From: Eledone cirrhosa
Lineage: Eukaryota
Assembly (NCBI GenBank): GCA_964016885.1
Contig: OZ024749.1
Location: 10,726,001 to 10,790,000 of the forward strand
Reading direction: 5' to 3'
Length of the DNA: 64,000 nt
The notes beneath the pieces were generated by a model, which saw only the letters and a list, made by a program, of their open reading frames with translations, had not been told where the DNA came from and made no database searches. Shown here in pieces: positions 21,641-52,318 of this stretch; within the stretch, counting starts at the first letter, position 1, and every line of letters begins with the position of its first letter. Made by a program: the position numbers and the translations under genes.

Positions 21641-21951
21641 TGTAAAGTTATGTTGGTGCCGCGCCATCCATGCCAAAACAAATGAGATCGTGTAGGTGTC
21701 ACGACAAAAAAACACACAGTCCACGCTGTAATGTGGCCGTGTAGGCAACACGGTAAAAACCTCCCAGACCCACACTGTAAATGTGGTTGGTGTTAGGAAG
21801 GGCATCCAACTGTAGAAAACCTGCCAGACAGTCCTATGCGAGCAAGACAATCACTCTTGCCTCAAGTGGGACTACCCCCGTCCAAACCCATGCAAGCGTG
21901 GAACATGGACGTTAAACGTTGATGATGATGATGATGATGATGATGATGATG
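21641..21951 (+). mobile_element. 5'-truncated RTE-family 3' UTR copy (one 112-bp unit) with (GAT)n tail
   Basis: Matches the reverse complement of ~51570-51982, which follows an RTE ORF2 stop codon. Ends ggacgttaaacgtt(gat)n. Confidence 0.85.
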
Positions 21952-22119
21952 TATCTATGTATGTATAATACAAGGTACGCTCTGACGGATTACTAGTACA
22001 AGAGAATAGAAACAAAACAAGACTTAAAGAATAAGACATTTCCCACAAAATGGCCTATTCCCCCTCACCACCACTATCAACACCCCAATGCGCCCTCTCC
22101 CCCACACAGACCCTCACCA

Positions 22120-25100
22120 CAACCAGAGCCGCCACCCCCACCACCCCTACCATCACCACTACCACCAACATTGTCACAGTCACCACCGCCACCACCACCT
22201 CTACCACTGCCATCTTCACCACCGCAACCACCACCACCACCATCACTTCTACCACCGCGACCAGCACCACCACAACCATCGCTGCCACCACCATCACCAC
22301 CATCACTTCTACCACCGTGACCACTACCACAACCATCACCACCACCACCACCACCACCACCATCACTTCTACCACCGCGACCACCACCACCACCATCGCT
22401 GCCACCACCACCACCACTTCTACCACCGTGACCACCACCACAACCATCACCACCACCACCACCACCACCACCATCACTTCTACCACCGCGACCACCACCA
22501 CAACCATCGCTGCCACCACCACCACCACAACCGTCGCTGACACCACCACCACCACCATCACTTCTACCACCGCGACCACCACCACAACCATCGCTGCCAC
22601 CACCACCACCACAACCATCGCTGACACCACCACCACCACCATCACTTCTACCACCGCGACCACCACCACAACCATTGCTACCACCACCACCACAACCATC
22701 AATTCTACCACCGCCACCACCACCACAACCATCGCTGCCACCACCACCACCACCATCACTTCTACCACTGCCACCACCACCACCACCACCATCACCTCTA
22801 ACACTGCCACCACCACCACAACCATCGCTGCCACCACCACCACCACCATCACCTCTACCACCGCGACCACCACCACAACCATCGCTGCCACCACCACCAC
22901 CACCATCACCTCTACCACTGCCACCACCACCACAACCATCGCTGACACCACCACCACCACCATCACTTCTACCACCGCCACCACCACCACAACCATCGCT
23001 GCCACCACCACCACCACCATCACTTCTACCACTGCCACCACCACCACCACCACCACCATCACTTCTACCACCGCGACCACCACCACAACCATCGCTGCCA
23101 CCACCACCACCACCATCACCTCTACCACTGCCACCACCACCACAACCATCGCTGCCACCACCACCACCACCACCATCACCTCTACCACCGCGACCACCAC
23201 CACAACCATCGCTGCCACCACCACCATCACCTCTACCACTGCCACCACCATCACAACCATCGCTGCCACCACCACCACCACCATCACTTCTACCACCGCC
23301 ACCACCACCACAACCATCGCTGCCACCACCACCACCACCATCACCTCTACCACTGCCACCACCATCACAACCATCGCTGCCACCACCACCACCACCATCA
23401 CTTCTACCACCGCCACCACCACCACAACCATCGCTGCCACCACCACCACCACCACCATCACTTCTACCACTGCCACCACCACCATCACCTCTACCACTGC
23501 CACCACCACCACCACCATCACCTCTACCACTGCCACCACCATCACAACCATCGCTGCCACCACCACCACCACCATCACTTCTACCACTGCCACCACCACC
23601 ACAACCATCGCTGCCACCACCACCACCACAACCATTGCTACCACCACCACCACCATCACTTCTACCACCGCGACCACCACCACAACCATCGCTGCCACCA
23701 CCACCACCACCATCACTTCTACCACTGCCACCACCATCACAACCATCGCTGCCACCACCACCACCACCATCACTTCTACCACCGCCACCACCACCACAAC
23801 CATCGCTGCCACCACCACCACCACCATCACTTCTACCACTGCCACCACCACCACCACAACCATTGCTGCCACCACCACCACCACCATCACTTCTACCACT
23901 GCCACCACCACCACCACCATCACTTCTACCACTGCCACCACCACCACAACCATCGCTGCCACCACCACCACCACAACCATTGCTACCACCACCACCACCA
24001 CCATCACTTCTACCACCGCGACCACCACCACAACCATCGCTGCCACCACCACCACCACCATCACCTCTACCACTGCCACCACCACCACAACCATCGCTGA
24101 CACCACCACCACCACCATCACTTCTACCACCGCCACCACCACCACAATCATCGCTGCCACCACCACCACCACCATCACCTCTACCACTGCCACCACCATC
24201 ACAACCATCGCTGCCACCACCACCACCACCATCACTTCTACCACCGCCACCACCACCACAACCATCGCTGCCACCACCACCACCACCACCATCACTTCTA
24301 CCACTGCCACCACCACCACCACCACAACCATTGCTGCCACCACCACCACCACCACAACCATTGCTGCCACCACCACCACCACCATCACCTCTACCACTGC
24401 CACCACCACCACCACCATCACCTCTACCACTGCCACCACCATCACAACCATCGCTGCCACCACCACCACCACCATCACTTCTACCACTGCCACCACCACC
24501 ACAACCATCGCTGCCACCACCACCACCACAACCATTGCTACCACCACCACCACCACCATCACTTCTACCACCGCGACCACCACCACAACCATCGCTGCCA
24601 CCACCACCACCACCATCACTTCTACCACTGCCACCACCATCACAACCATCGCTGCCACCACCACCACCACCATCACTTCTACCACCGCCACCACCACCAC
24701 AACCATCGCTGCCACCACCACCACCACCATCACTTCTACCACTGCCACCACCACTACCACAACCATTGCTGCCACCACCACCACCACCATCACTTCTACC
24801 ACTGCCACCACCACCACCACCATAACTTCTACCACTGCCACCACCACCACAACCATCGCTGCCACCACCACCACCACAACCATTGCTACCACCACCACCA
24901 CCACCATCACTTCTACCACCGCGACCACCACCACAACCATCGCTGCCACCACCACCACCACCATCACTTCTACCACTGCCACCACCACCACAACCATCGC
25001 TGCCACCACCACCACCACCATCACTTCTACCACTGCCACCACCATCACAACCATCGCTGCCACCACCACCACCACAACCATTGCTACCACCACCACCACC

Positions 25101-50361: not shown

Positions 50362-51081
50362 ATCAAGAATGTAGAGATTGCTAAGAATGTAAGCTTTACA
50401 TGTAGCAGTTGCACTGGAACAGTAAGCAGCAAATGACCGCAGGAAACAAGTGCTATCAAATTCAGGGAGGGCTCTGTAGAAACAGTAGACAGCTTCTGCT
50501 ACCTAGGTGACCGAATTAGTAGCGGTGGTGGGTGTTCTGAAAGTACAGTAGCTAGAGTAAGATGGAGGAAGTTGAGGGAGCTACTACCACTGGTGGCTAC
50601 AAAAGGCTTCTCCCTCAGAATGAAAGACAGACTGTATGATGCGTATGTACGAAAAACTATGTTACATGGTAGTGAGACCTGGGCACTGAGTGCAGAAGAC
50701 TTGCGTAGATTGGAAAGAAATGAAGCTTGCATGCTCCGATGGTTCTGTAATAGTAATATACGAGAACGGCAAAGCATAAACAAATTGAGAGAGAGACTGA
50801 GCATAAGAGGAATCAAATGCTGTGTGCAGAAGAGGAGGTTGCATTGGTATGGACATGTGATGCATATGAAGGATCACAGCTGCATAAAAAGGTGCAGAGC
50901 ACTAGAAGTCGATGGAAGCTGTGGAATGAGGAGACCCAAGAAGACCTGGGATGAGGTGATAAAAGCCGACCTTACCCAATTACACCTCTCAAAGGCGATG
51001 ACATACGACCATGACCTCTGGCGTCACGCAGTAATACAGAAGACCCAACCCTCCACGGGTACAAGCCGAAGCTGAAGCTGA
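50362..51081 (+). mobile_element. RTE-clade LINE, 5'-truncated ORF2 3' end with (GCTGAA)n tail
   Basis: VDSFCYLGD..WRKLRELLPL..MLHGSETW..RRLHWYGHVM..KTW; ends gaagctgaagctgaa. Confidence 0.93.
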
Positions 51082-51569
51082 ATATATATATATTAATAAT
51101 GTAATCAAATACTGTACAAGATATGTTCTATATATGAGTGTGTTATTTCACACACACACACTCACATTTATAGTGGTTGTATATAAACCTTGCTAGCAAG
51201 GAAAATATAAATTAAATGATGATTATGATGTGTGTATATATATACACATCTATAAATATTATACACACACAGTAATATACACACATGAATATATATCTTC
51301 ATAGTACTTAACCAAATCAATGAAATCTCTATTTACTTATATATATATATATATATATATATAGTAATAAGAATATATATATATATATATATATATATAT
51401 ATTCATTTACTTATATATTTATATATACTTTTTTTTTTCTGATTCCTAATATATTCATTTATTTATTTCTATTGAACAGTAAAACTGCTAAAACTTGTTT
51501 TGAAATGAAAAAACAAAATCAATGTCTTGTGTGATAGAACCAATTCTACAAACCAAATATATATATATA

Positions 51570-52318
51570 TCATCATCATCATCATCATCATCGTTTAACG
51601 TCCGTGTTCCACGCTTGCATGGGTTTGGACGGGGGTTTTCCCACTTGAGGCAAGAGTGGTTGTCTTGCTCGCATAGGACTGTCTGGCGGGTTTTCTACGG
51701 CTGGATGCCCTTCCTAACACCAACCACATTTACAGTGTGGGGCTGGGAGGTTTTTACCGTGTTGCCTACACGCCCACATTACAACGTGGACTATCTGGCA
51801 TGTTTTCTACAGCTGGATGCCCTTCCTAACACCAACCACATTTACAGTGTGGGGCTGGGAGGTTTTTACCGTGTTGCCTACACGGCCACATTACAGCGTG
51901 GACTGTGTGTTTTTTTGACGTGACACCTACACGATCTCATTTGTTTCGGCCTGGATGTTGTGGCACCAACATAACTTTACATTGAAAGGGGCGGTGTGGA
52001 TGGGGTGGGGGTGGTGGGACGGGGGTGTATTTTGTTAGAGATGCCTACTGACTGTAGTAGGTTTTACTTTGTATTTAGGTAAGGCGGGTCTTCTCTATTA
52101 CTGAGTACCGCCAAAGGTCTCGGTCCAGTGACATTGTCTTGGAGAGGTGTAAGTGTGTGAGGTCGGAATTTATCATGTCGTCCCAGGTTTTTCTGGTTCT
52201 GCCTACTCTGTGGCTACCGTCTATCTTTATTGCCCTGCACTTTGTTATACAGCTATCGTCCTTCATGCACATCACGTGACCATACCAACGTAGCCTTCTC
52301 TCGAGTAAACAACATCTG
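51570..52318 (-). mobile_element. RTE-clade LINE 3' end: ORF2 C-terminus (stop at 52075) plus ~500 bp 3' UTR with two 112-bp units and (GAT)n tail
   Basis: RRLRWYGHVMCMKDDSCI..GRTRKTWDD..DRDLWR is contiguous with the UTR family seen at 21641, 31180, 32494 and 34353. Confidence 0.9.

What the first reader, a model, noticed from the sequence alone, without database searches (positions are those of the whole stretch)
21641..52318. Copy-number series of a 112-bp unit (0, 1, 2, 3, ~9, ~18) inside an RTE LINE 3' UTR
Seen: six copies share head and (GAT)n tail but hold 0 (50169), 1 (21641), 2 (51570), 3 (31180), ~9 (32494) and ~18 (34353) units. The 51570-52318 copy is contiguous with an RTE ORF2 stop codon, and the 31180 copy starts at that same point. 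The SINE-looking pieces are therefore best read as 5'-truncated LINE 3' ends. Inference: this is a snapshot of satellite birth within a LINE UTR, either by RT slippage during insertion or by later expansion.
Basis: partly seen in the sequence, partly recalled or inferred. Interest (0 to 1): 0.7.

Follow-up and report, generated by a model that had tools for sequence, protein, structure and literature searches.

The report
Retrotransposon tail that grows into satellite
A jumping gene with over 20,000 copies in this animal genome carries a 112-letter repeat in its tail that usually occurs once or twice but at some sites has grown to tens of copies, and at one site likely to more than 1,300, most likely by DNA recombination after the gene had landed, so satellite DNA can be followed here from seed to full size.

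Summary
The unit counts are right, and the unit does lie in the 3' UTR of a young LINE (RTE-like). All 29 other ORF-end copies examined run into this UTR, and 5' ends are scattered, so these are truncated LINEs, not a SINE. The window is not a 0-to-18 ladder of six insertions. The 9-unit copy is a hybrid of the 18- and 3-unit copies inside a perfect 1,859-bp duplication. The '0' copy is a one-off deletion. One and two units are inherited from separate master subfamilies. Long arrays carry locus-private variants and nested blocks, which points to growth in DNA after insertion rather than RT slippage. The end point lies on contig C20. An ORF2 plus UTR head leads into 347 units; 1,029 matching units end in the LINE tail; each half stops at an assembly gap. 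This is likely one insertion of at least 153 kb. The process is known from Ogre 3' UTRs and reptile SINE satellites. The scan has noted other LINE-born satellites in this genome before.

The parts
21637..21951 (+). Copy A: 5'-truncated LINE 3' end, 1 unit; member of the 1-unit subfamily
31158..31800 (+). Copy B: starts at the ORF stop (31180) behind a ~22-base duplicate of its own UTR; 3 units (31352-31695); first unit carries the extra A of the 2-unit subfamily
31367..35084 (+). Perfect tandem duplication, period 1,859 (31367-33225 and 33226-35084; identity runs on to 33304/35163); includes two identical 690-base spacers (31801-32490, 33660-34349)
32491..33660 (+). Copy C: 9 units; 5' flank, head and units 1-6 of D, units 8-9, tail and 3' flank of B; not an insertion
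33226..33304 (+). 79-base interval in unit 7 of C within which the switch from D-type to B-type sequence lies (inferred crossover)
34350..36527 (+). Copy D: 18 units (34399-36421) with a 4-unit higher-order pattern (units 3-6, 7-10, 11-14)
50168..50361 (+). Copy F: internal deletion joining the head to the second half of the unit; junction unique in the genome; tail 88% identical to a young copy
51570..52077 (-). Copy E 3' UTR: stop codon, ~170-base head, 2 units (51904-51676), ~105-base tail, (GAT)n
52078..52320 (-). Copy E: last 81 codons of the EN+RT ORF, 5'-truncated
   Evidence: tblastn, 96%
27859..29078 (+). Older sister LINE: ORF remnant (56% aa), 9 copies of a 48-bp unit homologous to each half of the 112-bp unit, related tail and (GAT)n

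Best explanation
The six pieces are 5'-truncated 3' ends of one young LINE family whose tail holds a 112-bp unit once or twice, and the longer arrays most likely grew at each site after insertion by unequal recombination in DNA. Step 1 (shown): the LINE has one EN+RT ORF and a UTR of head, unit(s), tail and (GAT)n, in at least 22,660 copies. Step 2 (shown by shared diagnostic letters): 1-unit and 2-unit master subfamilies hand their unit number to their progeny, so many thousands of ready-made dimers were spread over the genome. Step 3 (inferred): out-of-register exchange between units, within one copy or between neighbours, adds units one or several at a time. Copy C is likely such an event between copies B and D. 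Step 4 (inferred from two gap-bounded halves): at one C20 locus the process ran to at least 1,376 units, 153 kb, still bracketed by the ORF and the tail. No function of the arrays is shown.
For: 29 of 29 other ORF-end loci enter the UTR, 28 reach the head motif and 27 the tail, with 1 unit x15, 2 x7, 3 x4, 7 x1. 5' ends scattered: 17 of 29 tail-anchored copies reach the ORF, and no two of the 19 mapped starts coincide. Exact 27-mers genome-wide: tail junction 22,660, unit-unit 10,720, ORF stop 6,779, controls 0. 9 of 10 two-unit copies of one tail type share an extra A in unit 1 only; 13 of 17 one-unit copies of another tail type share two other letters. 14 of 22 long arrays hold a non-CpG variant shared by 2 or more units and segregating in no other array; 10 of 22 repeat a multi-unit block; 28 of 109 shared variants are CpG transitions (p about 2e-9 against 8/112). 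B x D hybrid with a 79-base switch interval. C20: ORF, head, 347 units, gap; gap, 1,029 units, tail; same strand; the gap-side variant profiles match down to minor variants, and the longest exact match of the gap-side tile of one half lies 121 bases from the gap of the other.
Against: The 1,859-bp duplication has no difference at all and could be an assembly artefact; reads could not test it. The two C20 halves lie 1.94 Mb apart in the assembly, so their union is inferred. 8 of 22 long arrays show no private non-CpG shared variant, and 12 of 22 no repeated block, so RT slippage is not excluded for those, nor for gains of one unit. CpG changes are as common among singletons (31 of 120), so they date mutation in DNA but do not alone prove the order of events. 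The 22 arrays were picked for length. Replication slippage or break-induced copying would leave similar traces.
Confidence: 0.8

Rival explanations
1. The reverse transcriptase slips back on the repeated RNA during insertion and writes long arrays in one step.
For: The unit is itself a dimer of related ~48-63-base halves, which would favour re-annealing. Copy B carries a short duplicate of its own UTR at its 5' junction. 3-unit copies derive from 2-unit masters by one added unit. Some long arrays are nearly uniform (L052, L023).
Against: Each pass would copy the same RNA, so variants private to one locus and shared by several of its units, and nested blocks, are not expected; 14 of 22 and 10 of 22 arrays show them. 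It cannot give a 153-kb array. Long arrays are unevenly placed: 8 of 31 on C27, 2 of 31 on C1-C3.
Confidence: 0.1
2. The repeats are a SINE or an older satellite, and the LINE next to copy E is an independent insertion or captured the repeat.
For: Tail junctions outnumber ORF junctions 22,660 to 6,779. Related short elements and a related 60-bp satellite occur in the window. Copy B and one other copy start at the same base.
Against: 29 of 29 ORF ends continue into the UTR. There is no common 5' end, and no Rfam match in window 20000-64000. A sister LINE has the homologous 48-bp unit in the same place. The giant array is flanked by LINE parts in LINE order.
Confidence: 0.04
3. Copy C and part of the array lengths are assembly artefacts (false duplication, stitched haplotypes), so the window holds only B and D.
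For: 0 differences over 1,938 bases, including an A-rich spacer. The C20 array is broken by two 200-N gaps. No read support was obtained.
Against: The block is short, and its ends fall where unequal exchange between units predicts. Arrays of 7-46 units with their own internal variants stand at about 30 other loci, most with head and tail intact, so the expansion series does not depend on copy C.
Confidence: 0.15

Closest known systems
Satellites from tandem repeats in the 3' UTR of Ogre/Tat LTR retrotransposons (PMC7004042: passages, and Discussion; PisTR-A as cited in PMC9659126, passages)
   Same: A short tandem repeat carried in a retroelement's 3' UTR is spread as many short arrays, a few of which expand into long satellite arrays; intermediate stages coexist.
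   Different: Here the carrier is a non-LTR LINE in an animal, unit number is tied to master subfamilies, and the largest array still has both LINE ends. Ogre-derived long arrays lie mainly in primary constrictions; the chromosomal setting here is not known.
SINE-derived satellites (sSat) of squamates (PMC10702118: abstract, and Discussion)
   Same: Internal part of a retroposon amplified in place, up to about 1,000 units per locus, with element ends kept; a continuum from short to long loci; unequal recombination proposed.
   Different: sSats come from non-autonomous SINEs and mostly keep one terminus. Here the repeat is part of an autonomous LINE's own UTR, is already tandem in a master, and both flanks are kept.
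LINE-derived satellites: common cetacean satellite (L1 3' part), chicken HinfI (CR1), 18HT from HeT-A/TART (table and passages in PMC9659126)
   Same: Satellite monomer derived from the 3' region of a non-LTR element.
   Different: Those passages report similarity between a finished satellite and an element; here the array is still inside the element and intermediate sizes are present.
RTE-2_OV of Octopus vulgaris (PMC9115989: passages, and section 6)
   Same: Single-ORF EN+RT LINE of about 1,100 aa with a zinc finger, placed in the RTE clade.
   Different: Its 3' UTR is described as mostly microsatellite starting at the ORF end, and its finger as C2H2; this element has a structured UTR and a PHD-like finger. 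Sequences were not compared (5 supplementary files were not searched).

Membership tests
LINE (non-LTR retrotransposon) 3' end | AP endonuclease plus reverse transcriptase ORF upstream | tested here: met
   1,017-aa stretch of L038: RVT_1 1e-29, Exo_endo_phos 2.7e-9; best PDB matches are L1 ORF2p
LINE (non-LTR retrotransposon) 3' end | Fixed 3' end with simple-repeat tail and variable 5' truncation | tested here: met
   (GAT)n tails and scattered 5' starts
LINE (non-LTR retrotransposon) 3' end | Target-site duplication | tested here: inconclusive
   Flanks are mostly (AT)n microsatellite on both sides; no clear unique-sequence duplication was seen by eye, no systematic search was run
RTE clade | Single EN+RT ORF of about 1,000-1,100 aa, element of about 3-4.5 kb (feature recalled; mean 3.6 kb for RTE-BovB in PMC10294476 passages) | tested here: met
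   ORF 1,018 aa stop to stop; homologues of mostly 950-1,130 aa on 3-4.5-kb contigs
RTE clade | No ORF1 | tested here: inconclusive
   Up to about 1.2 kb of shared upstream sequence holds only 113-164-aa stop-to-stop frames in 6 copies looked at; the true 5' end was not reached with certainty
RTE clade | RT groups with RTE-1/BovB in a tree | not testable with these tools
SINE | Common 5' end with an RNA-derived (Pol III) head | tested here: not met
   No shared start among 29 copies; no Rfam hit in 44 kb of the window
Ceph-SINE / MetaSINE domain | Sequence similarity to the published domain | tested here: inconclusive
   One 11-12-letter motif of the unit is absent from the supplements searched (one MetaSINE file not searched); no alignment was made
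Satellite DNA | Long contiguous head-to-tail array (tens to hundreds of kb) | tested here: met
   C20: 114,387 and 38,488 uninterrupted bases. The window's own arrays (at most 2 kb) are only minisatellite-sized
Satellite DNA | Array-specific homogenisation and higher-order repeats | tested here: met
   C20 units share a 111-bp variant in about 60-70%; best exact-repeat lags 52-53 units; 4-unit pattern in copy D
Satellite DNA | Heterochromatic or centromeric location | not testable with these tools
   Needs FISH or chromatin data; neighbouring samples on C20 are rich in other tandem repeats

The most novel reading that the evidence does not exclude
This one LINE family is a genome-wide satellite seeder. 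It laid down over 20,000 near-identical seeds, and whether a seed grows is set by where it landed. Growth is concentrated on the small chromosomes (about 220 times more long arrays per Mb on C27 than on C1-C3, against about 4 times more seeds), up to a single insertion of at least 153 kb. If small chromosomes recombine more here, satellites would be born in recombination-rich DNA, against models that place them in recombination-poor DNA, and sister LINEs with the homologous 48-bp unit would do the same.
Probability: 0.35. Interest if true: 0.68.

Novelty: new member of a known kind. Interest (0 to 1): 0.47.

Why it matters
Satellite origins are usually read backwards from a finished array. Here seed (1-2 units), intermediates (3-46), a likely crossover and a full-size array (at least 1,376 units) belong to one young family and stay anchored by LINE flanks that can be dated. 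With over 20,000 equal seeds, it is the natural experiment named in the Discussion of PMC7004042 for asking which chromosomal settings let arrays grow or persist. In practice, these UTR fragments would be mis-annotated as a SINE, and the C20 array marks a likely scaffolding error of about 1.94 Mb.

Tried and rejected
Public runs: none held half of the spacer's words. A recalled idea that the unit is the Ceph/RTE 5'-UTR domain or Meta domain found no support. Folding: the whole UTR (z 0.31) and the unit (z 0.08 sense, -1.36 antisense) fold no better than shuffles; only the tail does, weakly (z -2.14, 5 of 200). Pseudoknots are not modelled by this tool. A tail-only DNA search returned nothing because the words are too common, and a search with 4 kb of the C20 array was not scored. 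The first sizing script misplaced the head, and its 5' extents were discarded. An ancestral zero-unit subfamily was rejected. A per-chromosome count of all long arrays was not obtained, so the chromosome bias rests on the top-40 list. Paper searches for a published description of this element or array found none; Repbase and Dfam could not be checked.
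Full report
What is in the window. Tandem Repeats Finder gives 112-bp arrays of 3.1, 9.1, 18.1 and 2.0 copies at 31352, 32540, 34399 and 51676. Split into units, they hold 1 (A, 21637), 3 (B, 31180), 9 (C, 32491), 18 (D, 34350) and 2 (E, minus strand) units; F (50168) keeps about 0.4. E continues upstream into 81 codons that are 96% identical to the end of a genomic ORF.

The carrier is a LINE. A search of the own genome with E's ORF end scored 40 of 3,001 candidates and returned 30 loci, one of them the window itself. All 29 others run into the UTR; 28 reach the head motif and 27 the tail, with 1 unit (15), 2 (7), 3 (4) or 7 (1) (L027 and L028 share flanks and are one event). 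One copy (L038) has a 1,018-aa stop-to-stop frame with endonuclease, RT and a weak PHD-like finger; its best solved relatives are L1 ORF2p. Homologues of 34-59% identity have the same layout but almost no names. RTE is therefore likely from architecture (recalled features; RTE-BovB is expanded in cephalopods according to passages of PMC10294476) but not shown by a tree. The organism is likely an octopus, from genome size and earlier scan notes; I did not test this. Exact 27-mers give 22,660 unit-tail junctions, 10,720 unit-unit junctions and 6,779 ORF-stop junctions, with 0 for each reversed control.

Not a SINE. Of the first 30 tail hits on C1, 29 were sized (L234 dropped by the filter). 17 reach the ORF, 10 of them beyond the edge of the locus, and no two of the 19 mapped 5' ends coincide. 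B's start at the stop codon recurs in 1 of 35 other copies. Rfam finds nothing in window 20000-64000. Many insertions sit in (AT)n tracts.

The window is not a ladder. 31367-33304 equals 33226-35163 without a difference, spacers included. C has D's 5' flank, head and the exact variants of D's units 1-6, then B's units 2-3, tail and 3' flank; the switch lies in a 79-base interval of unit 7. This is what unequal exchange between two neighbouring copies gives (inference), or an assembly duplication; reads did not decide. F's junction is unique in the genome, a private deletion between the related halves. A and B belong to different subfamilies. Among 81 copies with a head, 9 of 10 two-unit copies of one tail type share an extra A in unit 1 only, as does B; 13 of 17 one-unit copies of another type share two other letters, as does A. 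One and two units are thus inherited states.

How long arrays arise. A search with D scored 40 of 1,110 candidates and gave 31 distinct arrays elsewhere; most keep head and tail, with sizes up to 46 units outside C20. In 22 arrays compared unit by unit (L055 dropped; some cut at the locus edge), 14 hold a non-CpG variant shared by several units and segregating in no other array, and 10 repeat a block of 2-5 units. 28 of 109 shared variants are CpG transitions, and so are 31 of 120 singletons. Mutation came first and duplication after, at each locus; slippage on one RNA template does not predict that. Against this reading, 8 of 22 arrays lack private variants, and single-unit gains could come from either route.

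The end point. On C20, minus strand, a 5'-truncated ORF (about 2.5 kb, 92% identical to L038) and the UTR head lead into 347 unit matches (5,342,781-5,304,294) that stop at a 200-N gap. 1.94 Mb away, another 200-N gap opens into 1,029 unit matches (3,365,345-3,250,959) that end in the tail and (GAT)n. Fifteen 1-kb samples between 3.40 and 5.10 Mb and four more up to 5.28 Mb show no long array. The 50 units on either side of the gaps have nearly the same variant frequencies, minor ones included; differences within and between halves are equal (about 6 per unit); the gap-side tile's longest exact match lies 121 bases from the other gap. One insertion of at least 1,376 units and 153 kb, split by scaffolding, is the simplest reading (inferred). 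Two separate arrays of common origin remain possible. C20 accounts for 1,000 of the 2,800 excess minus-strand unit junctions; the rest is unexplained and may be further large arrays.

Position effect. 8 of the 31 arrays lie on C27 (0.75% of the genome) and 2 on C1-C3 (41%), a ratio of 221 per Mb (95% interval 44-2,140). Ordinary copies were 4 in 200 kb of evenly spaced C27 samples against 2 in 400 kb of C1-C3, a ratio of 4 (0.6-44). The intervals touch, the list is a top-40, and recombination rates are unknown, so this is a lead. An unbiased per-chromosome count is still open.

Origin of the unit. It is a dimer of related 49- and 63-base halves, each alignable to the 48-bp unit that an older sister LINE carries 9 times in the same UTR position at 28450-28884. 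Tandem UTR repeats are thus a lineage trait. The unit folds no better than shuffles; a role in RNA recognition is untested.

Comparison. The same route is published for Ogre LTR elements (PMC7004042, passages and Discussion) and for SINE-derived satellites of up to 1,000 units (PMC10702118, abstract and Discussion); LINE 3'-derived satellites are listed in PMC9659126 (passages). I also saw PMC9115989 (passages, section 6, part of the supplements), PMC13282606 (first third), PMC5786205 (passages, supplement search) and PMC4824008 (supplement search only). Seven searches found no description of this element; unsearched supplements and Repbase/Dfam could hold it. Earlier scan notes report other LINE-attached satellites in this genome; none matched this unit by sequence or place.

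Verdict. New member of a known kind; interest 0.47.

Noticed in passing
G000:C20 3,365,346-5,304,293: About 1.94 Mb of other sequence lies between two gap-bounded halves of one array; likely a scaffolding mis-order.
   Followed up: partly
window 58348-64000 and L041 1-10000: 60-bp satellite of at least 15.6 kb whose monomer aligns with the second half of the 112-bp unit; no LINE head at its start.
   Followed up: partly
window 27859-29078: Older sister LINE with nine 48-bp units in the same UTR position and an (ACC)-rich piece inside its ORF remnant.
   Followed up: partly
window 43585-43739, 44416-44555, 49324-49470, 57401-57592: Short elements that share the second half of the unit but have a different tail; very abundant in the laid reads. 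Possibly 3' ends of another LINE family or a SINE.
   Followed up: no
window 50362-51081 (+) and 53428-52976 (-): Two near-identical 3' fragments of a related LINE (67-70% aa to this family) in opposite orientation around copy E, without the 112-bp UTR.
   Followed up: no
window 49108-49300, 49700-49925, 52330-52870: Three long near-perfect inverted repeats (fold-back or MITE-like), seen by eye.
   Followed up: no
window 54055-56655: Broken LTR-retrotransposon pol in the order RT, RNase H, integrase (Pfam), interrupted by stops.
   Followed up: partly
window 1602-20806, 22132-26798, 38253-41940: About half of the window is tandem repeat: 11-bp array of 12.8 kb, 27-bp arrays and (CCA)-rich arrays.
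   Followed up: no
G000 whole genome: Unit-unit junctions are 6,760 on minus against 3,960 on plus; C20 explains 1,000 of the excess, so more large arrays may exist.
   Followed up: no
L038 1504-4557 (-): PHD-like finger right after the RT domain, below Pfam's cut-off here but above it in homologues P0003 and P0079; widespread in this LINE lineage.
   Followed up: partly
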